Positions 47,250-57,395 are shown, counted from the stretch's first letter. The stretch: 64,000 bases of DNA from Chlamydiales bacterium (GCA_024233435.1 JACKPQ010000001.1:660582-724581), one strand, 5' to 3'. Notes: generated by a model not told the origin, from the sequence alone. Made by a program: numbers and translations.

Positions 47250-48494
47250 TTATAAAGCATCAAGATAGGACTCTCCTTCCCTATTTAACACATAGCTCAA
47301 GCTGAAATCATAGCTAAGCATCCAATCTACTGACTTTTGATAACCACCACGTACAGCCATGTGAATTGGATAATCCTGTTCAAAATTACCTTGACAGTAG
47401 AGGAGCGTGGGGTCTTTTTCAACGAACAGCTTTATCAGTTCGAGGTGACCCGACTGGGCTGCCTCATGAATGGGAAGCTCACCGTGGCTATTAGGAAGAT
47501 CTAGAAGTTTTGGCGCCTTTTCAAGAATCCACCTGGCCATACGCAGATCCCCATTATATGCAGCAAAGTGTAAACAAGTCTCTCCATGATCAACTTGAAC
47601 TTCCAGCAAGATAGGATCTTTCTCCCACATCCATTTCAGGGCATCAAAATCTCCCTGTTTAGCCGCGCAATGGATAGGCAACCATCCATCTTCATCCTCA
47701 TTGGACAGATAAAGCCTTGAAACACCTCCCTGACGGATAATCTCCCAATCTTTATCCCAATTCTTACCATACAATAATGGTGGTGAGTACTCTATGATGG
47801 AATGGTCCATAGAGGTTTCAAGCTTTGCGCAGAGATCAGAAATTGAGCTAACCTCATGATGCCGCTCCAGATCTGGGTCTAATAACCAACACATCTTGTA
47901 GATCATCGAGATCGCTAAAAGAAGTTCAAACCTTGTAAAAACTAAGGAACGAGTCTGATTAGCCGAATGATTACTCCACAGGCTTACTGCAGCAGAAGAA
48001 AACAAATCGGCCTTTGTTGGATCCTGAAAGAAAGCGATGGCTTTTTTTAGCCAGGTCATGAACATGCCAAGCTCATCTTCGTTCATTAGCTGATTGAGAT
48101 CAAACTCACGGCTACCAAAAGCGCAATGAGTGATAAACTCAGTAAACCGGCCAAAGCAGCCATTAATATTTTTAGAGTCTTGCTCATCAGCAGAGTAAAC
48201 AAATACCTTTCCTGCAGCATTATAAAGATAAATATCCTCTTGGTGTTTGCAAAGAACGATGCCCTTAAGGTTACCTAGGCTTGGTTCAATGTAAATTCTA
48301 TAGCCCCCAAGCTCAAGACTCCCTGTATCAGACACAAAAGCTTTCAAGCTTTCAGACATGGGGCATTGCAATTGCTTTTCTAGAGCAGATGTGTTTTGAG
48401 TGCATTTCGAGTCGTCGATCAGGTAGGGAACACCCGCCCTTTTCATCAGAACTTCAAAATTTGGACGATACCAAGAATTCAACACCGTTTTCAT
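47250..48494 (-). CDS. SUKH (SMI1/KNR4)-like N-terminal domain fused to C-terminal ankyrin repeats
   Basis: The C-terminus has 4-5 ANK units (GWLPIHCAAKQGDFDALKWM, GETCLHFAAYNGDLRMARWIL, GELPIHEAAQSGHLELIKLF, YPIHMAVRGGYQKSVDWML). The N-terminal segment ALEKQLQCPMSESLKAFVSDTGSLELGGYRIY resembles the SMI1/KNR4 motif region, but the match is weak. Confidence 0.65.
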   Translation of the reverse strand: MKTVLNSWYRPNFEVLMKRAGVPYLIDDSKCTQNTSALEKQLQCPMSESLKAFVSDTGSLELGGYRIYIEPSLGNLKGIVLCKHQEDIYLYNAAGKVFVYSADEQDSKNINGCFGRFTEFITHCAFGSREFDLNQLMNEDELGMFMTWLKKAIAFFQDPTKADLFSSAAVSLWSNHSANQTRSLVFTRFELLLAISMIYKMCWLLDPDLERHHEVSSISDLCAKLETSMDHSIIEYSPPLLYGKNWDKDWEIIRQGGVSRLYLSNEDEDGWLPIHCAAKQGDFDALKWMWEKDPILLEVQVDHGETCLHFAAYNGDLRMARWILEKAPKLLDLPNSHGELPIHEAAQSGHLELIKLFVEKDPTLLYCQGNFEQDYPIHMAVRGGYQKSVDWMLSYDFSLSYVLNREGESYLDAL

Positions 48495-48523: not shown

Positions 48524-49786
48524 TCATTTTTCACAACCAGCGTCTGTCTCTTTTACAAGAGTTTGACTGATTTCAAGAGGTAAAAATAGGTACTTAAACG
48601 CCAATAGGCATTCAGATGGCGTCAAAGAATAATCTCGGCCATTTAGCTTAATTCTTGAAGAGGTCCATCCTAAATCGCCCTCTACAGCCTCAGGGTAAAA
48701 AATGATTTCTCCCCCCTTAAAACTAAAATCTCCCTTTTCAACAATCTGCTGCCCATTTTGAATCTGATAATGACAGCTCCCTTCTTTACCTCTTATCAAC
48801 GTCCAAATTTCATCTGTTTGCAGGTTTTCCCACCGGCACTCATCTCCTTCAGTAAAAAATATTGACTCATCACACTTAATGGCTTCCATTTGACGTTCAC
48901 AAGGATAATTGTCCGCCTTTTGCAACATGATAATCCAATCATAGATCGATTGATTTTTTTGCGGGCAGTGGCAAAGGGGCGTCATTGTGCCATCTAACTC
49001 CATCTGCTCATAATCATCATAGGCCGCACTAAGCCACTCATGCCAAGTGGCATGCCCCTTAATCATACCCTCCAGAATATTTTGATGATACTCCTTATCT
49101 TCGGTATGCTCTTGGACAAGCTTGGCATTCCGTGCTACTATATCTTGATATACACAATCGAGATGCGTTAGCAAATGAGCTTCAATTTGATTGGCAAGCC
49201 ATGGATCAAAAGGCCTCTCTTGTCTCAGATGATATAAATTCAATGAAGTGTCTTTCACATTGTTTAGTGAACTCATCCGTTGTGTTTCATTGAATGGAGC
49301 AAAAAGCCCTAAATACCTCTCTCTGATCGTAGCATTACGCCACGGGATCCAACGAGCACCACCATACAGATGGGCTTCATGAACCATGCTTCCGCCAGCT
49401 ACCTGTAAACGCAACATCTGGCCATACGCCCCTTTTAGTCGTTGCCAGACCAACTCTTCGGCTTGTAATTGGCTTGCTCTTTGTTGATAAAATTGCTCTA
49501 AGGCTCCAATGAACTCTTTAGAAACCACCAGCTCATCTGCTCTTGCTTTTTCCTCGAGTGAAACAGCATTTTGATTGAGCCACTCTGTTACGCGCTGATA
49601 AACGTGAGCATAATCCTTATCCAATTCCTCATTGACCGCAAAGAGAGTGTTCCTGTCCAATTTCTGACATCCTAACGCCTCCAACTTCGCACTAGCTCGC
49701 AAATACAAATCACCTCTTGTATCCAGGTATGGGCAATAGCCAATAATGCAGCACGATAATAGAGTCAGACACGGAATCATTTTCAA
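48524..49786 (-). CDS. Hypothetical secreted/lipo-protein (420 aa)
   Basis: Hydrophobic Cys-rich N-terminus (MKMIPCLTLLSCCIIGYC). No further motif recognised. Confidence 0.55.
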   Translation of the reverse strand: MKMIPCLTLLSCCIIGYCPYLDTRGDLYLRASAKLEALGCQKLDRNTLFAVNEELDKDYAHVYQRVTEWLNQNAVSLEEKARADELVVSKEFIGALEQFYQQRASQLQAEELVWQRLKGAYGQMLRLQVAGGSMVHEAHLYGGARWIPWRNATIRERYLGLFAPFNETQRMSSLNNVKDTSLNLYHLRQERPFDPWLANQIEAHLLTHLDCVYQDIVARNAKLVQEHTEDKEYHQNILEGMIKGHATWHEWLSAAYDDYEQMELDGTMTPLCHCPQKNQSIYDWIIMLQKADNYPCERQMEAIKCDESIFFTEGDECRWENLQTDEIWTLIRGKEGSCHYQIQNGQQIVEKGDFSFKGGEIIFYPEAVEGDLGWTSSRIKLNGRDYSLTPSECLLAFKYLFLPLEISQTLVKETDAGCEK

Positions 49787-49905: not shown

Positions 49906-50062
49906 GGGAAAATCCCGCCCTGTTTGCGATATCCTACTGGAGTACTTAAATCCATGATCTGCATTTCACGCCTCTCGCACATCCCTCCAAAATACATCAT
50001 TTCAGCAGGCTTCGCTCTCATTTTAGTAGCACTAGCTGCTATCGCCTATCTGGGATACCAAG
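49906..50062 (+). repeat. Direct repeat copy B (relic of the gshF 3' end plus 5' end of the disrupted coiled-coil paralogue)
   Basis: It encodes GKSRPVCDILLEYLNP* (gshF ends GKSRPVCDALLEYLNP*), followed by the same ATGA junction and MICISRLSHIPPKYII. Confidence 0.85.
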
Positions 50063-50563
50063 CCCAACTAGCACAAAATGCGAGCATCCAAGCGCTCGAA
50101 AAAGCTTTAGCTAAACAACAAGCAGAGTTAAAGGCTCTTAGCCAAATAACCAATCAAATAGCAGACCTAAAAGAGCGCATCCAAGCGCTCGAAAAAGCTT
50201 TGCCTGAACAAAACCCACGATAACCAAATAACCAATCAAATAGCAGACCTAAAAGAGCGCATCCAAGCGCTCGAAAAAGCTTTGCCTGAACAAAACCCCG
50301 AGCTAAATGCTCTTAACCAAATAACCATTCAAATAGCAGACCTAAAAGAGCGCATCCAAGTAACCGAAGAATACCTGTCCACTGAAAATACCATTCTAAA
50401 ATTACAGGTCAGAGGGTGGTTAGAGGAGCAACGTCACACTTCCATTGGACTAGCGCCATTAGAAGCGCATATCCGCGCACTCAAAAAGCAGCTAGCTCCT
50501 AGCGAGCAGGAGGATTTAGAGCTTGAGATACGCCTCGCTAAATTAAAAGAAACAAAGCCTTGA
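49954..50563 (+). pseudogene. Frameshifted paralogue of the 46068..47132 coiled-coil membrane gene
   Basis: It has the same TM-anchor N-terminus. The reading frame stops at 50221-50223 and continues in the +1 frame (track ORF 50282..50563). The break coincides with an 82-nt unit in an otherwise 93-nt tandem repeat. Confidence 0.6.
50086..50360 (+). repeat. 93-bp (31-codon) tandem repeat, about 3 units, one shortened by 11 bp
   Basis: The landmark ATCCAAG recurs at 50086, 50179, 50261 and 50354, giving spacings of 93, 82 and 93 nt. The units encode IQALEKAL(A/P)(K/E)Q..EL(K/N)AL(S/N)QIT(N/I)QIADLKER. Confidence 0.85.
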
Positions 50564-50583
50564 TGATAAAAAGTTGATCATTT

Positions 50584-50625
50584 TGTAGGGTTGAGTATTT
50601 GTAGAGATGGGGAAGTTGCTTGCAT
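50584..50625 (-). pseudogene. Relic of the first ~14 codons of a third ankyrin-like gene copy
   Basis: The reverse complement reads ATGCAAGCAACTTCCCCATCTCTACAAATACTCAACCCTACAA, which matches the 5' ends of the genes starting at 51917 and 53949 (MQATSPSLxxLNPT). Similarity stops abruptly at about 50584. Confidence 0.6.
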
Positions 50626-50750
50626 TTTACCTTCTTTATTCTTTTGTTTTTGATCCTTTTACTTTGCCTAAATAGCCTGGTAGTTCCACGCCTGCCATTT
50701 CAGCAACAAAGTTGCAGAGATCCATCTCTTGCATGCTTAAACTCTACGTA
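50626..50750 (-). repeat. Duplicated flotillin 3' tail plus spacer (copy C), containing a 32-codon mini-ORF (50636..50734)
   Basis: A 76-nt block matches 53950-54025 at nearly all positions. The minus-strand mini-ORF MQEMDLCNFVAEMAGVELPGYLGKVKGSKTKE* keeps the last 22 residues of flotillin (AEMAGVELPGYLGKVKGSKTKE*). Confidence 0.8.
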
Positions 50751-51917
50751 TTAAATAGGGAGGCCTTCAGCAGGACTCTCGCCAGAAACATTTTTCATCT
50801 CTGTAGTGTCTATCCCCAGCATTTGCAGCACCTCTGTTGAAACGCGATTCTCCTCATTGGCTTGTCTTAGCAAATTTGTAAACTTTACCTTAATTGATCC
50901 AGAAGACATGCCATTGAAGACATCCAAAGGACTCTCATCATTTTTTGCCTCAACACCTAACAGCTGCACTGCAAATTCTTTTTGTAGCAGTATGGCCGCT
51001 ACTTTCTCCCATTCTTCTTCCCTGACTTCTTCTGCCATTCTCTTAAATACTATATGCAAAACCGTATTTCCTTCCTCATCAATCGGGCCCTTCCACACCT
51101 CTACTGGAAAGTTATACTCTGTAATGAATTTAGAAAGCTCTTCAGGTTCCTCAAGCAGTCCACACAGAGGGGATACACCTTCCTTGTTCTTAACTTGCAA
51201 TAGATCTGCTGCAAAAGGTTTTTTTAACAGATTACCGATCCAATCATGATATTGAAAATATATAAGCTCTCTATGCAATACCGTGTTCCCTTTGTCATCA
51301 AATGGCATTTTCCATTCATCTAAGCCGATATCATCATTTGATGCAGCACATTCCATAAAGCATTTAAGTTCTATCTTATCATCATTGAAAAGCGATTTAA
51401 AAGCTTGGCATGGCCATATTGCCTTTACAACATTAGGAGCTTTTGGTAGTTGTTCCTTATAATAGAAGAGACAATCTGTTACTTTTTTAGATTTGCCAAA
51501 CACATCAAAAATCGCTTTTGCCATCACAGGATCGTCATTTTTCATTGCCTTTGTAAACTTTATGCATGCCGATTCCTCTGACATAAACAGGCATAGCCAC
51601 ATTGGATGTGCTACATCTTTCGGTAGTGCTTCCTTGTTATTGAGGAGGGTTTCTATTACTTCTTTAGCCTTACAGAACACATCCAAAATCGCTTTTGCCA
51701 TCACAGGATCGTCATTTACAGCCTCTTTAAGTCTTATGCGAGCCGATTCCTCTGACATAAACTGGCATCGTAGCCATGCCTTGCGCTCACTTGATGCTAG
51801 ATAGTAGATTGCCCCCAATGCAACGGTTGCAATGATTGCCAGCAGAGCAGTTTGTTGGCATTTAGGGCTCCAGTTTGTGGGGTTGAGTACTCGTAGAGAT
51901 GGGGATGTTGCTTGCAT
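50751..51917 (-). CDS. TM-anchored ankyrin-like repeat protein (short paralogue)
   Basis: The N-terminus MQATSPSLRVLNPTNW plus a TM (ALLAIIATVALGAIYYL) is shared with 52036..53949. There is a duplicated FMSEES..I....A...DDPVMAKAI.DVF module and ~77-aa units with ANK-like GNTVLH and NKEGVSPL cores. Confidence 0.7.
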   Translation of the reverse strand: MQATSPSLRVLNPTNWSPKCQQTALLAIIATVALGAIYYLASSERKAWLRCQFMSEESARIRLKEAVNDDPVMAKAILDVFCKAKEVIETLLNNKEALPKDVAHPMWLCLFMSEESACIKFTKAMKNDDPVMAKAIFDVFGKSKKVTDCLFYYKEQLPKAPNVVKAIWPCQAFKSLFNDDKIELKCFMECAASNDDIGLDEWKMPFDDKGNTVLHRELIYFQYHDWIGNLLKKPFAADLLQVKNKEGVSPLCGLLEEPEELSKFITEYNFPVEVWKGPIDEEGNTVLHIVFKRMAEEVREEEWEKVAAILLQKEFAVQLLGVEAKNDESPLDVFNGMSSGSIKVKFTNLLRQANEENRVSTEVLQMLGIDTTEMKNVSGESPAEGLPI

Positions 51918-52035
51918 TTTATCTTCCTTATTCTTTTGTTTTTGACCCTTTTACTTTGCCTGGGTAGCCTGGCAGCTCCACGCCTGCCATTTCAGCAACA
52001 AAGTTGCAGATATCCATCTCTTGCATGCTTAAACT
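51918..52035 (-). repeat. Duplicated flotillin 3' tail plus spacer (copy B), containing a 32-codon mini-ORF (51928..52026)
   Basis: Same 76-nt block and spacer as copy C. The mini-ORF stop lies 10 nt upstream of the ATG of the next ankyrin-like gene, as at the authentic flotillin stop. Confidence 0.8.
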
Positions 52036-53949
52036 CTACGTATTAATAGGGAGAGCTTCAGCAGAACTCTCGCCAGAAACATTTTTCACCTCTGTAGTGT
52101 CTATCCCTAGCATTTGCAGCACCTCTGTTGAAACGCGATTCTGCTCATTGGCTTTTCTTAGCAAATCTATAAAATCTATCTTAATTGATCTAGAAGACAT
52201 GCCTTTGAAGACATCCAAAGGACTCTTGCCATTTATTGCCTTAACACCTAATAGCTGCACTGCAAATGGCTTTTCTAGCAGCTTGACTGCTACTTCCGCC
52301 CACTCATTTGGAATCATTATACCCTTTTGATCAAATGCCGCATGCAAAACCGTATTCCCATCCTCATCGATCGGCATCTTCCACACCTCTACTGAAAAGT
52401 CATACTCTTCAATAAGTTCAGAAAGACATTCAGATTGATAATATGTCGAATGCAAAGGGGATACACCTATCCTGTTCTGTACTTGCAATAGCTCTGCTGC
52501 AAAAGGTTTTTGTAATAGTCCATGTTTCACTTCTTTCCATTCTGAGCAAATCGGAGCCTCGTTCATTGCTTTATGCAAAACCGTATTTCCCTCAGCATCA
52601 ATTGGGTTCTTCCACACCTCTACTGGAAAGTCATAATCTATAAGTTTACAAAGACTTTTAGGTTGAGAAAGCAGACTAGACAAAGGAGATGCGCCTTCCT
52701 TGTTCAGGACTTGCAATAGCTCTGCTGCAAATGGCTTTGCTAGCAGCGCAACTACCACTGATTTCCATTCATCTAAATGACATGAGAGATTCATTACTTC
52801 ATGCAACACTGTGTTTCCCCGTTTGTTAATTGAGCTCTTCAATACCTCTGCTGAAATGTCATAGTTATTAATAAAATCACAAGCACTTTTAGCATTAGAA
52901 ATAAGCTCAGACAAGGGACTTTTGCCTTCCTTGTTCAGGACTTGCAACAACTCCTCTGCAAAAGGCTTTGCTAGCAGTTTCACTGCTATTTCCTCCCATT
53001 CATATGACCATCTCCGTTCCATTGCTATTTGCAACACCGTGTTTCCTTCTTCATCGATCGGGCTCTTCCACAGTTTTGCTGAAAAGTCATCCCTTTTCAA
53101 AATGGCTGAAACTGTTTTACTCGTGACACTCCAGCGAGCAAAAGGGCTATTGCCTTTGTTGTTCTTAACTTGCAACAACTCCTCTGCAAAAGGCTTTGCT
53201 AGCAGTTTCACTGCTATTTCCTCGCATTCATCTGACTGTCTCATTCGTTCCATTGCTATTTGCAACACCGTGTTTCCTTCTTCATCGATCGGGCTCTTCC
53301 ACAGTTTTGCTGAAAAGTCATCCCTTTTCAAAATGGCTGAAACTGTTTTACTCGTGACACTCCAGCTAGCAAAAGGGCTATTGCCTTTGTTGTTCTTAAC
53401 TTGCAACAACTCCTCTGCAAAGGGCTTTGCTAGCAGTTTCACTGCTATTTCCTCCCATTCATATGACCATCTCCGTTCCATTGCTATTTGCAACACCGTG
53501 TTTCCTTCTTCATCAAGTGGCATTTTCCATTCTTCCAAGCCGATATCTTCCATTGTTAAAGCGTATTCTATAAGTTTTGAATCATTACTTTGGAAAAGCG
53601 ATATGAAGGCTGGGCCTCGCCATATTGCCTTTACAACTTTAGGGGCTCTTTGTAAATTTTCATGCTCATTGATAAGGCATTCTTTTACTTTTTCAGATCG
53701 ACAAAACACACCCAAAATCGCTTTTGCCATCACAGGGTCGTCATTTTTAACTGCCTCTTTAAATCTTATGCAAGCCGATTCCTCTGACATAAACTGGCAT
53801 CGTAGCCATGCCTTGCTCTCACTTGATGCTAGATAGTAGATTGCCCCCAATGCAACGGTTGCAATGATTGCCAGCAGAGCGGTTTGCCGACATTTAGAGC
53901 TCCAGTTTGTGGGGTTGAGTACTTGTAGAGATGGGGAAGTTGCTTGCAT
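52036..53949 (-). CDS. TM-anchored ankyrin-like repeat protein (long paralogue, six ~77-aa units)
   Basis: Same N-terminus and TM as 50751..51917. Six units follow the pattern WK.PID(E/A)EGNTVL(Q/H).A......EW.E.AVKLLAKPFA.ELLQV.NK.G.SP. It starts 10 nt after the flotillin stop. Confidence 0.75.
   Translation of the reverse strand: MQATSPSLQVLNPTNWSSKCRQTALLAIIATVALGAIYYLASSESKAWLRCQFMSEESACIRFKEAVKNDDPVMAKAILGVFCRSEKVKECLINEHENLQRAPKVVKAIWRGPAFISLFQSNDSKLIEYALTMEDIGLEEWKMPLDEEGNTVLQIAMERRWSYEWEEIAVKLLAKPFAEELLQVKNNKGNSPFASWSVTSKTVSAILKRDDFSAKLWKSPIDEEGNTVLQIAMERMRQSDECEEIAVKLLAKPFAEELLQVKNNKGNSPFARWSVTSKTVSAILKRDDFSAKLWKSPIDEEGNTVLQIAMERRWSYEWEEIAVKLLAKPFAEELLQVLNKEGKSPLSELISNAKSACDFINNYDISAEVLKSSINKRGNTVLHEVMNLSCHLDEWKSVVVALLAKPFAAELLQVLNKEGASPLSSLLSQPKSLCKLIDYDFPVEVWKNPIDAEGNTVLHKAMNEAPICSEWKEVKHGLLQKPFAAELLQVQNRIGVSPLHSTYYQSECLSELIEEYDFSVEVWKMPIDEDGNTVLHAAFDQKGIMIPNEWAEVAVKLLEKPFAVQLLGVKAINGKSPLDVFKGMSSRSIKIDFIDLLRKANEQNRVSTEVLQMLGIDTTEVKNVSGESSAEALPINT
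52925..53560 (-). repeat. Near-identical 228/231-bp intragenic tandem repeats (about 2.7 units)
   Basis: The landmark CTTGCAACAACTCCTCTGCAAA recurs at 52941, 53169 and 53400 (spacings 228 and 231 nt), and only a handful of substitutions are visible between units. Confidence 0.85.
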
Positions 53950-53959
53950 TTTACCTTCT

Positions 53960-55288
53960 TTATTCTTTTGTTTTTGACCCTTTTACTTTGCCTAGGTAGC
54001 CTGGCAGCTCCACGCCTGCCATTTCTGCGACATCGTGCAGGGCTGGGACGGATTTAACCATATTGCTCAAAAAGTTGGAAGTAGTTGTTCCTCTTTTCCC
54101 TTCTTTAGACTCTCCACTATCCCAGACGGTGATCTTGTCAATTTTGATGTTGCGGATTGCCTCGGTTTGTAGGCGCACTACTTCTTCTAGTTTCTCGATG
54201 AGCAACATTGAAGATGTATCATCTCCACAGGCGTCGACAAGCTCTTTAAAGCCTTTAGCTTTGGCTTCAAGGACCTTTTTTAGACCTTCTGATTCGGCTT
54301 GGCGCAGAGCCAAAATTGCATCAGCCTCACCTCGAGCTTCTCTGATGCGTTTTTGCGCTTGAGCATCGGCCTCAATCTCCATCTTCTGTTTGGCAATTTC
54401 TTGTGGAACGATTTGTGAAGCTTTTAAGCGCGAAGTTTCAGCTTCGGCTTTTGCGTTGTGAATCGAAACTTCTGCCACCTGATGGGCAACTTGAGAGCGT
54501 TTTTCAGCTTCAGCTTCTTTTTCCTTAAGAAGGGCATTCGTGGCTGCCATTTCTGCCTTGGCAAGGTTTTCGCCCTCTACAGCTTTAGCATGATGCATTG
54601 CCACCTGAATGCGGCGCTCACGATCAGCTTCAGCTTTACCGATCTCCCCTTTCTTCTCTTCTTCAGCGACATCAATTTTGGCTTGGTTAACAGCAGTTGC
54701 TGCCGCTTTTTTACCAATGCTATCGATGTACTCAGACTCGTCAGTAATGTCTGTGATATTCACGTTGATGAGCGTCAGGCCAATTTTATGGAGCTCTGGC
54801 TCTATGTTATTTTTAATTGCGTCTAAAAACCGCTCGCGATCTTGGTTAATCTCTTCAATTTTAAGCGATGCGACAGTTAAGCGCAGCTGGCCGATGATGA
54901 TCTCGGTTGCCATGCTTTCGATCTCAGCCACACCAAGCCCTAGCATGCGCACAGCAGCATTATGCATCACCTCTGGGGTGATCCCCACAGCAACAGTAAA
55001 GGTGCTAGGCACATTAATGCGGATGTTTTGCTGAGATAATGCACCTTTGAGCGGGATATGTATCGAGCGAGGGGTTAAGTTTAGGTAGGCACTCGCTTGA
55101 ATGAGGGGCCAAACAAACGTGCCTCCCCCGTGGTAGCATTGAACAGAGCGCTTTTGACCCACACGCCCAAAAACAACTAAAATCTGGTTAGAGGGACATC
55201 GACGATATATCTTTGCCAAGAATAGAAATGTTGCAAAAATAAAAGCAGCACCTGCAACAACTGCTGAACTAAAGAATCCACTTACCAT
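53960..55288 (-). CDS. Flotillin-like SPFH/band-7 protein (YqiK-like)
   Basis: N-terminal TM, an SPFH domain (ILVVFGR..., IRINVPSTFTVAV) and a long Ala/Glu/Lys-rich flotillin-type coiled coil (AAATAVNQAKIDVAEEEKKGEIGKAEADRER...). Confidence 0.85.
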   Translation of the reverse strand: MVSGFFSSAVVAGAAFIFATFLFLAKIYRRCPSNQILVVFGRVGQKRSVQCYHGGGTFVWPLIQASAYLNLTPRSIHIPLKGALSQQNIRINVPSTFTVAVGITPEVMHNAAVRMLGLGVAEIESMATEIIIGQLRLTVASLKIEEINQDRERFLDAIKNNIEPELHKIGLTLINVNITDITDESEYIDSIGKKAAATAVNQAKIDVAEEEKKGEIGKAEADRERRIQVAMHHAKAVEGENLAKAEMAATNALLKEKEAEAEKRSQVAHQVAEVSIHNAKAEAETSRLKASQIVPQEIAKQKMEIEADAQAQKRIREARGEADAILALRQAESEGLKKVLEAKAKGFKELVDACGDDTSSMLLIEKLEEVVRLQTEAIRNIKIDKITVWDSGESKEGKRGTTTSNFLSNMVKSVPALHDVAEMAGVELPGYLGKVKGSKTKE

Positions 55289-55848
55289 TTTTTTACCACC
55301 ACTGTTTGTTCATCCAAAATGCGCACTACAGAAATGCGTTCAAAGGATTTTATTTCTTGTTTATCTTCTGCAACTGCTAAAAGCTCATGCAAAACGCCAT
55401 GAACGCTCAAATGCACCTTGCCTGTTCCATTTTCTGCAATCTTAGTATAGACTTGGCCCTCAACTCCGACCATATCTTGGATGTTAAAATCCGCGCCCTT
55501 AGACGTGAGCATCCCCGCTAGCCTAAAAATCCACCCTGTAATGAATAGCATTAAAACCCCTGCTGCAAGAGCAGCCACGCAGCTTAATCCCGCTCCAATA
55601 GCTGTCTGCTTTAAACAGGCCAGTCCAATCCAGCCAAACATCATTGTAAAGCCAGTTAAGGAATGGACAGTGAATAATTTAAAATGTCCGTCATGATCCC
55701 CATCGCTTGCGCTTTGATGATCGTCATGGGCAAGGCCAAAGATCATGAGTCCCAACCTCAACACAAAAAGAAAAGAGCCTCCAATCGCTGCGGCCCAATA
55801 CAAGCGATCTGATTGCAAAAATTGTTCTATAAAGCTGTCCATACCCAA
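55282..55848 (-). CDS. NfeD-like membrane protein (YqiJ-like), partner of flotillin
   Basis: Four to five TM helices and a C-terminal OB-like segment (GVEGQVYTKIAENGTGKVHLSVHGVLHELLAV). It overlaps the flotillin start by 7 nt, the canonical nfeD-SPFH pairing. Confidence 0.75.
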   Translation of the reverse strand: MGMDSFIEQFLQSDRLYWAAAIGGSFLFVLRLGLMIFGLAHDDHQSASDGDHDGHFKLFTVHSLTGFTMMFGWIGLACLKQTAIGAGLSCVAALAAGVLMLFITGWIFRLAGMLTSKGADFNIQDMVGVEGQVYTKIAENGTGKVHLSVHGVLHELLAVAEDKQEIKSFERISVVRILDEQTVVVKKW

Positions 55849-55941
55849 GCATTATAGCTGGCTGCGCTAATTTTTACAATTTCTTCTCACTTCATAATAT
55901 TTATTTATTGCTGGTCTTCCAACGTTGAGATGAAAATTTCT

Positions 55942-55994: not shown

Positions 55995-56663
55995 ATGCCT
56001 ATTCAACAAGTCAACTATGCGGGTGCTCAAAGCTGCAGGGACGGAAGAAGCCCCAATGAGGACCTTGAGCACGCTGTGAGCACTTGTAACTGGCCAGTTA
56101 CCCTCAATCTTTTACAAAATTACGATTTTGAGGCTTATCCACCTTCAACACTGATGTATGTTGTTCGCAGTGCGGATGATCCCACAAGAAGGACTCTATT
56201 TGAAAGGTTTTTTTCTAATGACAGATGCCCCTTCAATGAAGATGAAATCAGTAAAGCCTTGCTTGTTGCTGCAGCAGGCGGCCATAGAGACATTATGGGC
56301 AGATTAATGGAATTATCCTCCTTTAAAGACACGCCTACAGAGAGGGCAAAGGAGTTCGTTGATTACATTGATAAAGGACCCGATTGGGAAACAACCCTAC
56401 TTAACTGTGCGTGTTGTGGATTGTGGAGGTATGCCAGATTTATTATTGAAAACACTGGCGTTTTCTCTAAAGAGGCCTCTTTAGAGCTGATTGCAGCTAA
56501 CTCCATTTGCCATGTATTAACCGAGGATGGAATGGAGGCAGCTAAAAAGGCTGCAATTGATGAAAAAGCAAATGCACAGAACAGCGAGCAAAGAAATAAT
56601 ATAGAAACGGCAATAAGGGTTGTGCAGGAAGGAATGATACTTGCCGATTGGCAACAACCATGA
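55995..56663 (+). CDS. Hypothetical protein, tandem paralogue A (weakly ankyrin-like helical repeats)
   Basis: It shares NW.(V/T)TL.LLQNYDFE.YPPSTLM.V......R..LF..FF.ND..PF.E.EISKALL.AA with the next gene. Confidence 0.6.
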   Translation: MPIQQVNYAGAQSCRDGRSPNEDLEHAVSTCNWPVTLNLLQNYDFEAYPPSTLMYVVRSADDPTRRTLFERFFSNDRCPFNEDEISKALLVAAAGGHRDIMGRLMELSSFKDTPTERAKEFVDYIDKGPDWETTLLNCACCGLWRYARFIIENTGVFSKEASLELIAANSICHVLTEDGMEAAKKAAIDEKANAQNSEQRNNIETAIRVVQEGMILADWQQP

Positions 56664-56684: not shown

Positions 56685-57395
56685 GTGTCAATTGGCTTAA
56701 TCAGATTACGAGAAGGTTATGCTCAGTGCACAAATGGAAATGGCGACCTAGAGACGGCCCTAAAGAAAGCACTACTTGATCAAAATTGGGAAACCACCCT
56801 CCATCTTTTACAAAATTACGACTTTGAAACTTACCCACCTTCAACGCTCATGCACGTGATTCATAACGCTGACACAGAGATAAGAAAGGACCTTTTTGAT
56901 CAATTTTTTCAAAACGACAAAAACCCATTCGATGAAGAGGAAATCAGCAAAGCCCTGCTTATTGCTGCGACTGATAACCATCAAGACGTTATTGAGTTTT
57001 TAATGAAAAAGCCTTTTGCGACCGAGTCTTCCCCGAATGTAAAAAATGCCGTGAATTATATTCCTAAAGGCCCTGAATGGGGAATTGCTCTTTTTAACTG
57101 TGCCCGCTACGGGTTGGTGACACATGTTCACTTAATTTTTGAAAATACCGGTATATTTTACCCTTCTTATTTTGCTGAAACAGCACCATCTGACCACCAC
57201 TGCCAAGCATTAACCGAAGATGAAATGCGGGCAGCCTTTGACGCAGCGGTTGAAGAGGCTGAGAAGTTACCAGAATATTGCGAACGCCGTACGAATATAG
57301 AAATAGCTACACAAATGATCACAAACAAAATGATCATGAATAAATTGATGCCAGGAGCTCCCGTTAACCCAAATGAATTCTGCCGCACTAACTAA
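56685..57395 (+). CDS. Hypothetical protein, tandem paralogue B
   Basis: GTG start. It is collinear and similar to 55995..56663 along most of its length. Confidence 0.6.
   Translation: MSIGLIRLREGYAQCTNGNGDLETALKKALLDQNWETTLHLLQNYDFETYPPSTLMHVIHNADTEIRKDLFDQFFQNDKNPFDEEEISKALLIAATDNHQDVIEFLMKKPFATESSPNVKNAVNYIPKGPEWGIALFNCARYGLVTHVHLIFENTGIFYPSYFAETAPSDHHCQALTEDEMRAAFDAAVEEAEKLPEYCERRTNIEIATQMITNKMIMNKLMPGAPVNPNEFCRTN

What the first reader, a model, noticed from the sequence alone, without database searches (positions are those of the whole stretch)
50584..55848. NfeD-flotillin operon extended by a tandemly amplified ankyrin-like gene array that carries the flotillin tail as a conserved mini-ORF
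On the minus strand the order is nfeD, then flotillin (7-nt overlap), ANK-like gene 2 (10 nt after the flotillin stop), a 32-codon mini-ORF, ANK-like gene 1 (10 nt after the mini-ORF stop), a second 32-codon mini-ORF, and a 14-codon relic of a third ANK-like gene. Each mini-ORF ends with AEMAGVELPGYLGKVKGSKTKE*, the exact C-terminal 22 residues of flotillin, and keeps the same 10-nt spacing to the next ATG. The duplication unit therefore ran from the flotillin tail to the end of an ANK gene. The preserved frame, stop and spacing suggest that translational coupling (termination-reinitiation) is needed for ANK expression. A physical or functional link between a bacterial flotillin microdomain scaffold and TM-anchored ankyrin-like proteins has not, to my knowledge, been described.
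Basis: partly seen in the sequence, partly recalled or inferred. Interest (0 to 1): 0.7.

Follow-up and report, generated by a model that had tools for sequence, protein, structure and literature searches.

The report
Ankyrin gene array behind flotillin operon
An uncultured environmental chlamydia has added a fast-changing tandem array of membrane-anchored ankyrin-repeat genes to its nfeD-like/flotillin operon, and the small "flotillin-tail ORFs" between the copies are most likely duplication scars kept uniform by recombination, not functional genes.

Summary
The anatomy is real. On the minus strand the order is nfeD-like, flotillin, ANK2, a 32-codon flotillin-tail relic, ANK1, a second relic, and a 15-codon ANK stub. 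Each ANK ATG lies 10 nt after a stop. Two details need correcting: relic A carries an L>P change, and the stub ORF has 15 codons.

The same design occurs in a sister lineage (flotillin 98% aa identical, dS about 0.9). Relics there are 57 codons long and the spacer is 9 nt.

Copy number differs between strains: 0, 1, 2 or 3 ANK genes. All other flotillin loci examined, including the nearest relatives (79-88% identity), lack the family. It has about six members among 15 billion proteins.

Relics carry their own genome's synonymous flotillin states at 8-10 of 10 diagnostic sites. Between strains they are no more conserved than the dead stub. This points to recent copying or gene conversion from the real flotillin 3' end.

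The ANK ribosome-binding site lies in the flotillin end and spacer, so any translatable duplicate must carry a flotillin fragment. No RNA structure hides the ANK starts. The mini-ORF start codons differ between lineages and lack a Shine-Dalgarno sequence.

Obligatory translational coupling is therefore unsupported, though not excluded. A synonymous excess in the relics remains only partly explained.

The parts
55851..55879 (-). Best sigma-70-like promoter match (TTGTAA-17-TATAAT), directly upstream of the nfeD-like gene; the putative operon promoter.
   Evidence: This is a consensus scan only. No comparable minus-strand site lies between flotillin and the ANK genes.
55282..55848 (-). nfeD-like (YuaF-type) membrane protein gene, 188 aa, overlapping the flotillin start by 7 nt.
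   Evidence: for the ORF. One search shows several hydrophobic segments. The window protein itself has no Pfam or NCBIfam hit. A profile of 15 orthologues hits only PDB 2K14 (YuaF), E 0.16, over the C-terminal domain. One of the 15 hits Pfam NfeD at E 0.0022.
53960..55288 (-). Flotillin (SPFH2/FloT-type), 442 aa.
   Evidence: Pfam Band_7 at 101 bits and Flot at 31.4 bits. NCBIfam FloT partial match. dN/dS against the sister lineage is 0.012/0.90.
53960..54031 (-). Last 23 flotillin codons plus stop; the source of the repeated tail segment.
53950..53959 (-). 10-nt spacer AGAAGGTAAA with an SD-like AGAAGG before the ANK2 ATG.
   Evidence: read directly from the sequence.
52036..53949 (-). ANK2: a single N-terminal TM helix (about residues 23-41) followed by ankyrin-like repeats; 637 aa.
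   Evidence: (Ank_2, 46 bits).
52787..53514 (-). Intragenic tandem repeat inside ANK2. Units are 228-231 nt (76-77 aa, two ankyrin-like repeats); two of the copies are 97% identical.
   Evidence: family D1; TRF: period 231, 2.6 copies, 93% matches.
51928..52026 (-). Mini-ORF A (relic A), 32 codons. The last 23 codons plus stop (51928-51999) derive from flotillin and carry an L>P change. It is in frame with ANK2, separated by a single TAG.
51918..51927 (-). 10-nt spacer GGAAGATAAA before the ANK1 ATG.
50751..51917 (-). ANK1: same N-terminal TM module, an internal duplication of the post-TM helical motif, and ankyrin-like repeats; 388 aa.
50636..50734 (-). Mini-ORF B (relic B), 32 codons. The flotillin-derived part is 50636-50707. 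It differs from the flotillin tail by 7 changes, all synonymous.
50626..50635 (-). 10-nt spacer AGAAGGTAAA before the stub ATG.
50578..50625 (-). Stub of a third ANK gene, MQATSPSLQILNPTK*. It marks the end of the array, 14 nt from the stop of the convergent gene.
   Evidence: The same stub is present in L012 and L013.

Best explanation
This is a clade-specific extension of an nfeD-like/flotillin operon. The added genes form a tandem array encoding single-pass, membrane-anchored ankyrin-repeat proteins.

The first ANK gene starts 9-10 nt after the flotillin stop. Its Shine-Dalgarno sequence lies in the last flotillin codons and the spacer. Any duplication that yields a translatable extra ANK copy must therefore begin inside flotillin. 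This is an inference.

The duplication unit is shown directly. It consists of the last 24 flotillin codons (window lineage) or 57 codons (sister lineage), the spacer and one ANK gene.

After the first illegitimate duplication, unequal homologous recombination and gene conversion act between the repeated 'flotillin tail - spacer - ANK head' modules (130-290 nt, 92-95% identical). These events expand, shrink and homogenise the array. Copy number of 0, 1, 2 or 3 in different strains is shown; the mechanism is inferred from mosaic patterns.

The mini-ORFs are scars of this process. Their frame, stop and spacing persist because they are recent copies of, or are repeatedly overwritten from, the strongly selected flotillin 3' end. 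They do not persist because they must be translated.

The ANK genes are probably co-transcribed with nfeD and flotillin from the promoter upstream of nfeD. This is inferred from the lack of intervening promoter-like or terminator-like sites.

The ANK genes are accessory and fast evolving. A role as clients or partners of the flotillin scaffold is possible, but it rests on gene adjacency alone.
For: 1. Unit and junctions are defined.

2. The same design occurs in independent assemblies of a sister lineage.
- L011: flotillin, ANK 223 aa, relic, ANK 323 aa, relic, ANK 603 aa.
- L010: flotillin, ANK 534 aa, relic, then the contig ends.

3. Copy number varies between strains.
- L001 and L013 overlap by 378 nt at 100% identity. 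Together they give a one-gene array.
- L012 is a distinct haplotype (0.7-1.1% different). Flotillin runs straight into the stub.

4. Mosaicism is evident.
- The window flotillin shares its spacer with relic B.
- Relic A shares its spacer with the L001 and L012 flotillins.
- L010 relic 1 resembles flotillin and relic 2 in its 5' part, and L011 relic 1 in its 3' part.

5. Relics follow their own genome. Ten codons in the tail differ between the two lineages' flotillins. At these, relics carry the own-genome state at 8-10 of 10, synonymous states included. Flotillin dS between the lineages is 0.90, whereas ANK heads within a genome differ by dS 0.07-0.19.

6. Several apparent relic changes are really changes on the flotillin side.
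- L010/L011 relic 1 keeps CCA, GAT and GGC, as in the window-lineage flotillin.
- Relic B keeps GAA and TAT, as in both outgroups.

7. In the window versus L013 comparison, the relic is 94.2% identical. ANK1 is 92.5%, the dead stub 91.7% and the non-flotillin part of the mini-ORF 90%.

8. SD-like AGAAGG or AAGGAAG (window lineage) and AAGGAG (sister lineage) precede every ANK ATG. There is no conserved RNA structure around the starts (-4 kcal/mol, no covariation).

9. Mini-ORF starts differ between lineages: MQEM... versus the native flotillin Met of MVKSV.... They lack an SD, and L013 has lost the first ATG.

10. No minus-strand promoter-like or terminator-like site separates flotillin from the ANK genes.
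Against: - Differences between relics and flotillin tails are skewed to synonymous changes. Relic B shows 7:0, L010 relic 1 shows 5:0, and the window versus L013 relic comparison shows 4:0. Only 25-31% synonymous is expected for random mutations. Flotillin-side changes and conversion explain part of this. They do not clearly explain the private TAT/TTA/GGA changes of relic B.
- All six relics seen keep an open frame, the stop and an unchanged spacer length.
- No transcript or translation data exist for this uncultured organism.
- The L012 zero-copy haplotype comes from a short metagenome contig.
- The sharing of one ancestral junction by the two lineages rests on a weak similarity (p about 0.002-0.02, uncorrected).
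Confidence: 0.6

Rival explanations
1. The mini-ORFs are translated and are needed for termination-reinitiation coupling. Ribosomes finishing the relic ORF 9-10 nt upstream deliver initiation to the next ANK gene. Selection therefore keeps the frame, stop and spacing.
For: The stop-to-ATG distance is constant at 10 nt in six window-lineage copies and 9 nt in five sister-lineage copies. Every relic is an open frame ending at the native flotillin stop. In the window the mini-ORF ATG lies 9-16 nt after the upstream ANK stop, so a relay of coupled ORFs is conceivable.
Against: - Coupling predicts indifference to the peptide sequence, so it does not explain the synonymous excess.
- The ANK starts have their own SD-like motif and no conserved occluding structure.
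- In the sister lineage the mini-ORF ATG is about 70 nt after the ANK stop and has no SD.
- The first ATG is lost in L013.
- The spacer sequence itself is the least conserved segment, at 70% between strains.
- Relic conservation equals that of the dead stub.
Confidence: 0.2
2. The relics encode a functional free peptide, a copy of the conserved flotillin C-terminus. This peptide would modulate flotillin assembly or bind NfeD or the ANK proteins.
For: Synonymous-biased differences occur in the flotillin-derived part: roughly 6-7:1 in the window lineage and 5:0 in L010 relic 1. The upstream, non-ORF part of the long relics shows about 4:5. The motif VPALHDVAEMAGVELPGYLGK is invariant in chlamydial flotillins that are only 88% identical overall.
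Against: - L011 relic 2 has S>F and V>L changes inside the ORF, and relic A has L>P inside the conserved motif.
- There is no SD, and start codons are not conserved.
- Own-genome synonymous states indicate copying rather than independent conservation.
- Numbers are very small; Fisher's test for ORF versus upstream part gives p about 0.07 by my own estimate.
Confidence: 0.06
3. The repeated 'flotillin tail - spacer - ANK head' modules serve as homologous recombination sites. They let strains gain, lose or reorder ANK cassettes behind flotillin, giving contingency-type variation of an envelope protein.
For: Strains with 97-99% identical flotillin DNA have 0, 1 or 2 genes. In the one-copy strain the gene directly behind flotillin is ANK1-like, not ANK2-like. 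The stub plus tail persists at the empty site in L012. ANK proteins diverge about 30 times faster than flotillin at nonsynonymous sites.
Against: The same patterns are expected from passive unequal crossing-over in any tandem array. There is no evidence of benefit or of elevated switching rates, and only a handful of haplotypes are sampled.
Confidence: 0.1
4. The array is an assembly artefact caused by mis-joined or collapsed repeats.
For: Repeats of 130-290 nt and 97% identical 228-nt intragenic units are the kind of sequence that short-read assemblers mishandle.
Against: The copies are diverged (88-95%) and each has private substitutions. The same architecture appears in independent assemblies from NCBI, ENA (a 1.59-Mb contig) and JGI.
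Confidence: 0.02

Closest known systems
NfeD2-flotillin (SPFH2) operons, e.g. Bacillus subtilis yuaF-floT(yuaG)-yuaI (Hinderhofer et al. 2009, PMC2636767)
   Same: A small multi-TM NfeD-like gene overlaps the start of a flotillin gene. In B. subtilis a third, lineage-specific gene (a GNAT acetyltransferase) follows in the operon.
   Different: Here the extra genes are membrane-anchored ankyrin-repeat proteins. They are present as a variable tandem array and carry copies of the flotillin 3' end. This family was not seen in the nearest relatives or in any of the other flotillin loci examined.
Flotillin-associated rhodopsin clusters (PMC10308929)
   Same: A lineage-restricted membrane protein gene sits next to flotillin with a very short spacer (16 nt) and is co-transcribed with it. 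The authors read this as a client of the flotillin microdomain.
   Different: That association is single-copy, spans several phyla and has metatranscriptome support. Here there is no expression evidence, the clade is tiny and the copy number is unstable, including zero.
Lineage-specific tandem expansions of eukaryote-like repeat protein genes in environmental Chlamydiae (Domman et al. 2014, PMC4209131); strain-variable ANK genes of Wolbachia (own knowledge)
   Same: Fast-evolving repeat-protein families, amplified in tandem, in host-associated bacteria. Repeat number varies between strains.
   Different: This family has only about six members in public data. It is tied to one operon, and each non-first copy carries a fragment of the upstream housekeeping gene.
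Orphan toxin/immunity cassettes downstream of cdiA and rhs genes (own knowledge, not tested here)
   Same: Downstream modules are each preceded by a fragment homologous to the 3' part of the main gene. This provides substrates for homologous recombination that changes which module is joined to the main gene.
   Different: There the fragment is in frame with, and becomes part of, the main protein. Here the ANK genes are separate cistrons, and the flotillin protein itself is unchanged by the rearrangements.
Pseudomonas aeruginosa katB-ankB (own knowledge, not tested here)
   Same: A bacterial ankyrin-repeat protein with an N-terminal membrane or export segment, co-transcribed directly downstream of a partner gene.
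   Different: Single copy, a different partner (catalase), and no sequence relationship shown.
Concerted evolution of bacterial paralogues by gene conversion (e.g. tufA/tufB; own knowledge)
   Same: Copies within a genome stay more similar to each other than to orthologues, synonymous sites included.
   Different: Here one partner is a non-functional fragment that is homogenised with the end of a functional gene.

Membership tests
Flotillin / SPFH2 (FloT, YuaG type) | SPFH/Band_7 domain followed by a flotillin coiled-coil region | tested here: met
   Pfam Band_7 at 101.1 bits (cut-off 23.6) and Flot at 31.4 bits (cut-off 27). NCBIfam FloT partial match, E 5e-34.
Flotillin / SPFH2 (FloT, YuaG type) | N-terminal membrane anchor | tested here: met
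   Hydrophobic windows at residues 1-28 with Kyte-Doolittle mean up to 2.2.
NfeD (YuaF/YqiJ-type NfeD2) | C-terminal NfeD (OB-fold) partner-binding domain, PF01957 | tested here: inconclusive
   The window protein has no Pfam or NCBIfam hit. A profile of 15 orthologues has YuaF (PDB 2K14) as its only PDB hit, E 0.16, over positions 119-183. One of the 15 members hits PF01957 at E 0.0022. The literature notes that YuaF-type NfeD proteins are barely detectable by sequence (PMC2636767).
NfeD (YuaF/YqiJ-type NfeD2) | Multi-TM N-terminal half; gene directly upstream of, and overlapping, an SPFH gene | tested here: met
   23 hydrophobic windows across residues about 18-116. A 7-nt overlap with flotillin. 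The same arrangement occurs in all chlamydial relatives examined.
Ankyrin-repeat proteins | Sequence match to ANK repeat profiles above the curated threshold | tested here: met
   ANK2 scores Ank_2 46.0 bits (cut-off 27.3), Ank_4 24.6 (22.7) and Ank 23.8 (21.1). ANK1 has no Pfam hit, but it belongs to the same family (HMM E 4e-177; alignment).
Ankyrin-repeat proteins | Stacked helix-turn-helix repeat solenoid fold | tested here: inconclusive
   The AF2 model of ANK1 has mean pLDDT 75.6 and is all-helical. The best Foldseek PDB hits are ankyrin-repeat proteins (49 of the 50 rows listed; rank 31 is a PUF repeat protein), including DARPins, MIB1, KANK and IkB. However, E is only 4e-3 and TM-scores are 0.2-0.5.
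Chlamydial Inc (inclusion membrane) proteins | Bilobed hydrophobic domain (two adjacent TM segments, about 40 aa) | tested here: not met
   There is only one hydrophobic segment of about 19-21 residues, at 23-41. AF2 predicts one long helix at 18-41.
Translationally coupled (termination-reinitiation) gene pairs | Stop of the upstream ORF within a few nt of the downstream start | tested here: met
   10 nt in the window lineage and 9 nt in the sister lineage, at every copy.
Translationally coupled (termination-reinitiation) gene pairs | The downstream start depends on upstream translation (no usable SD, or the start is buried in structure) | tested here: not met
   SD-like AGAAGG, AAGGAAG or AAGGAG lies 4-12 nt upstream of each ATG. 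The consensus fold is -4.2 kcal/mol, does not involve the start and shows no covariation.
Translationally coupled (termination-reinitiation) gene pairs | The upstream ORF is actually translated | not testable with these tools
   No transcriptome or ribosome profiling exists for this uncultured organism. The mini-ORF starts lack an SD and differ between lineages.
Tandem segmental duplication with concerted evolution | Head-to-tail units with a shared novel junction; copies within a genome more alike than orthologues, synonymous sites included; copy-number polymorphism | tested here: met
   (8-10 of 10 own-genome states).

The most novel reading that the evidence does not exclude
The repeated flotillin-tail/ANK-head module is a selected recombination device. 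It lets this chlamydial clade add, drop or reorder diverse membrane-anchored ankyrin cassettes directly behind a flotillin scaffold gene. The cell would thereby vary which ANK protein is co-produced with, and perhaps recruited to, flotillin microdomains. The relic ORFs would be kept intact either for coupling or because they periodically become the real flotillin end.
Probability: 0.1. Interest if true: 0.65.

Novelty: new variant of a known kind. Interest (0 to 1): 0.4.

Why it matters
Bacterial flotillins are thought to scaffold specific membrane clients, but few clients are known, and none in Chlamydiae. A clade-specific client-like gene fused into the operon gives a concrete candidate partner to test.

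The locus is also a clean natural example of an operon constraint. The downstream gene's ribosome-binding site lies inside the upstream gene, which forces duplicates to carry a fragment of that upstream gene. It also shows how recombination with the functional copy can make such scars look conserved.

This is a caution against reading small conserved ORFs in tandem arrays as functional.

The practical importance is modest. The organism is uncultured, the family is tiny, and at least one strain appears to lack the genes.

Tried and rejected
- **RNA structure hiding the ANK start.** The consensus fold of nine copies is -4.2 kcal/mol, with no covariation, and does not involve the start codon. Rejected.
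- **Known RNA families.** Only one tRNA was found in the window, far from the locus.
- **Own promoters for the ANK genes.** No minus-strand promoter-like site lies upstream of the ANK genes. Site counts do not exceed those in shuffled sequence.
- **Wider family membership.**
  - The full-length search found only four proteins.
  - The N-terminal profile search returned nothing, not even the query proteins, so it is uninformative.
  - An exhaustive HMMER search with the N-terminal 110 aa found the known members, one 131-aa fragment (P0133) and two spurious low-complexity repeat proteins.
- **A family HMM against ORFs of all fetched flotillin loci.** No member was found outside the clade. It found no further member in the window either.
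- **Foreign-DNA signal.** GC of the array (0.39-0.43) is not distinct from the surroundings.
- **Inc-protein reading.** Rejected, because there is a single TM segment.
- **Purifying selection on relic B, inferred from '5 of 5 synonymous'.** Weakened after polarising with outgroups. Some of these states are ancestral flotillin states, or alleles present in other strains' flotillin.

Full report
**1. What is in the window**

All elements lie on the minus strand.
- An nfeD-like gene at 55282-55848.
- A flotillin gene at 53960-55288, overlapping nfeD by 7 nt.
- ANK2 at 52036-53949 (637 aa).
- A 32-codon ORF, relic A, at 51928-52026.
- ANK1 at 50751-51917 (388 aa).
- A second 32-codon ORF, relic B, at 50636-50734.
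- A 15-codon stub at 50578-50625, MQATSPSLQILNPTK*. Its first 14 codons match the ANK starts.

Each ANK or stub ATG lies exactly 10 nt after a TAA. The flotillin tail, spacer and ANK head occur three times at 92-95% identity (E 1e-35 to 1e-37).

Two details of the finding need correction. Relic A carries CTA>CCA (L>P), so only relic B reproduces the 22 flotillin residues exactly. The stub ORF has 15 codons.

Homology to flotillin begins at codon -24. The first ten mini-ORF codons are not flotillin-derived.

**2. What the genes are**

- **Flotillin** is a clear SPFH2/FloT-type protein (Band_7 101 bits, Flot 31 bits).
- **The upstream gene** has the architecture and position of a YuaF-type NfeD. 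By sequence it is only weakly linked. The window protein has no Pfam or NCBIfam hit. A 15-member profile has YuaF (2K14) as its only PDB hit, at E 0.16. One member hits PF01957. This fits the literature on poorly conserved NfeD2 proteins (PMC2636767).
- **ANK2** passes the Pfam ankyrin thresholds.
- **ANK1** does not pass them, but it is a clear paralogue. Its AlphaFold model (pLDDT 75.6) gives ankyrin-repeat structures as the best PDB hits (49 of the 50 rows listed; rank 31 is a PUF repeat protein), weakly (E 4e-3).
- **Both ANK proteins** have one N-terminal hydrophobic helix at residues 23-41. ANK2 also contains a very recent intragenic tandem repeat of 228-231-nt units, up to 97% identical.

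**3. Relatives**

The flotillin is 98% identical in protein to those of two other assemblies. These are L010, titled 'Chlamydiia bacterium Co_bin.61', and L011, a 1.59-Mb ENA contig syntenic with the window. Synonymous divergence is nevertheless large: dS 0.90 and dN 0.012.

Both assemblies have ANK-like genes starting 9 nt after the flotillin stop.
- L011 has three genes (223, 323 and 603 aa).
- L010 has a 534-aa gene and the start of another.

Every non-first gene is preceded by a relic of the flotillin end. Here the relic is 57 codons long and is joined exactly at the stop codon of the preceding ANK gene. It contains a 33-codon ORF that starts at a native flotillin Met.

JGI metagenome contigs add three haplotypes of the window lineage.
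- L001 and L013 overlap by 378 nt at 100% identity. Together they read nfeD-flotillin-ANK1-like-relic-stub, a single gene.
- L012 is a distinct haplotype, 0.7-1.1% different. It reads flotillin-spacer-stub-downstream, with no ANK gene.

By contrast, the next-closest flotillins (88, 87, 82 and 79% identity) are followed by convergent or unrelated genes. A family HMM finds no member in about 80 further flotillin loci.

The family is tiny. A search of 5.8 billion clusters found four proteins. An exhaustive search with the N-terminal module found one additional fragment.

**4. Are the mini-ORFs conserved because they are used?**

Several observations argue that they are scars.

(a) Ten tail codons distinguish the two lineages' flotillins, mostly at synonymous sites. 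At these, relics carry their own genome's state at 8-10 of 10. ANK heads within a genome differ by dS 0.07-0.19, against saturation between lineages. Relics are therefore either recent copies or homogenised with the real flotillin end.

(b) The junction sequence in the window resembles the 3' end of sister-lineage ANK genes: ATGCAAGAGATG...GATATCTGCAACT against ATGCAGGAGATGTCCCGTCTGATATAGGCAACT (p about 0.002-0.02 by shuffling, uncorrected). This hints at one ancestral junction. If so, concerted evolution rather than independent duplication would be the cause.

(c) Mosaic patterns indicate exchange between modules. Examples are the spacer types shared between flotillin and different relics, and the chimeric L010 relic.

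(d) In the orthologous comparison of the window with L013, the relic is 94.2% identical. This is no better than ANK1 (92.5%), the dead stub (91.7%) or the non-flotillin part of the mini-ORF (90%). That last part has lost its first ATG in L013. The spacer is the least conserved segment, at 70%.

(e) Every ANK ATG has an SD-like motif formed by the flotillin end and spacer. No conserved RNA structure occludes it.

(f) The mini-ORF starts are different codons in the two lineages and lack an SD.

Because the ANK ribosome-binding site lies within or immediately after the flotillin coding end, a duplication that yields a translatable copy must begin inside flotillin. The relic is then an expected by-product.

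**5. What remains unexplained**

Differences between relics and flotillin tails are mostly synonymous.
- Relic B: 7:0.
- L010 relic 1: 5:0.
- Window versus L013 relic: 4:0.
- Random mutation would give only 25-31% synonymous changes.

Polarising with outgroups and the other lineage shows that several of these are changes on the selected flotillin side, with the relic keeping the older state. L011 relic 2 looks neutral, at 3-5 synonymous to 4 nonsynonymous.

The private TAT/TTA/GGA changes of relic B are not accounted for. Frequent two-way conversion, with selection acting only when a relic sequence lands in flotillin, would give this pattern. So would a functional peptide. Simple coupling would not, because it is blind to amino-acid identity.

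**6. Operon and function**

The best promoter-like site is directly upstream of nfeD, at 55879-55851. No minus-strand promoter-like or terminator-like site separates flotillin from the ANK genes. One transcript is therefore the likely but unproven reading.

The positive-inside rule gives a tentative topology. It is applied by eye to the flanks of the TM helix, using the sequences. On this reading the N-terminus is cytoplasmic and the ANK domain lies outside the cytoplasm. Flotillin's bulk would be cytoplasmic. This is weak inference.

A scaffold-client relationship is possible, as proposed for flotillin-associated rhodopsins (PMC10308929). The genes are dispensable in at least one haplotype. 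They also evolve about 30 times faster than flotillin at nonsynonymous sites. This fits an accessory, possibly host-interaction role, as for other expanded repeat families of environmental Chlamydiae (PMC4209131). A full-text search found no report of a bacterial flotillin-ankyrin operon.

**7. Verdict**

The duplication-unit inference is right. The flotillin-ANK link is real but confined to a very small clade and is unstable. A requirement for translational coupling is not supported.

This is a new variant of known kinds: an NfeD-flotillin operon with a lineage-specific extra gene, and a tandem repeat-protein expansion with concerted evolution. Interest is moderate.

Noticed in passing
window 52027-52038: The ANK2 stop codon (TAG) is in the same reading frame as mini-ORF A, three codons upstream of its ATG (...ALPINT*SLSMQEMD...). 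A single base change would fuse ANK2 to the flotillin tail. In ANK1 a 1-nt insertion (CCTATTTAA versus CCTATTAAT) gives an earlier TAA and shifts the frame.
   Followed up: partly
window 49924-50563 (+ strand): Two adjacent small ORFs (99 and 93 aa) encode coiled-coil repeats (QITNQIADLKERIQALEKALPEQNP). They are built from 82-93-nt tandem repeats and converge on the end of the ANK array. The alignment with L013 shows 54 gap columns here, so repeat number also varies between strains.
   Followed up: partly
window 55995-56663 and 56685-57395 (+ strand): Two tandem paralogous genes (222 and 236 aa) are transcribed divergently from nfeD. The second has a sub-threshold Ank_2 match (24.5 bits). The syntenic L011 locus has only one copy (235 aa). 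This is a second local tandem duplication of an ankyrin-like gene.
   Followed up: partly
window 47250-48494 (- strand): A 414-aa protein with canonical ankyrin repeats (Ank_4 E 5e-20). It is unrelated to the array family by HMM. Next to it is a 420-aa ORF of unknown function (48524-49786). This stretch is absent from the syntenic L011 region.
   Followed up: no
L011 11853-12389: In the sister lineage a GNAT acetyltransferase gene follows the ANK array on the same strand, 40 nt after it. This recalls yuaI, the GNAT third gene of the B. subtilis yuaF-floT operon (PMC2636767). It is missing from the window.
   Followed up: no
L011 8653-8700 versus L010 3232-3280: L011 relic 1 differs from its L010 orthologue by 8 nt, clustered in 14 codons (-57 to -44). 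The two strains' flotillin genes are 99.7% identical. This looks like a short conversion tract from a divergent donor.
   Followed up: partly
L013 (reverse strand) positions about 1040-1062: The ANK1-like gene of the JGI strain ends about 30 codons earlier than window ANK1 (...EERVSI*), so the C-terminal extension is not conserved even between close strains.
   Followed up: no
tool behaviour: The profile search with the N-terminal alignment returned no hit at all, not even the query proteins. That null result says nothing about the family's distribution.
   Followed up: yes
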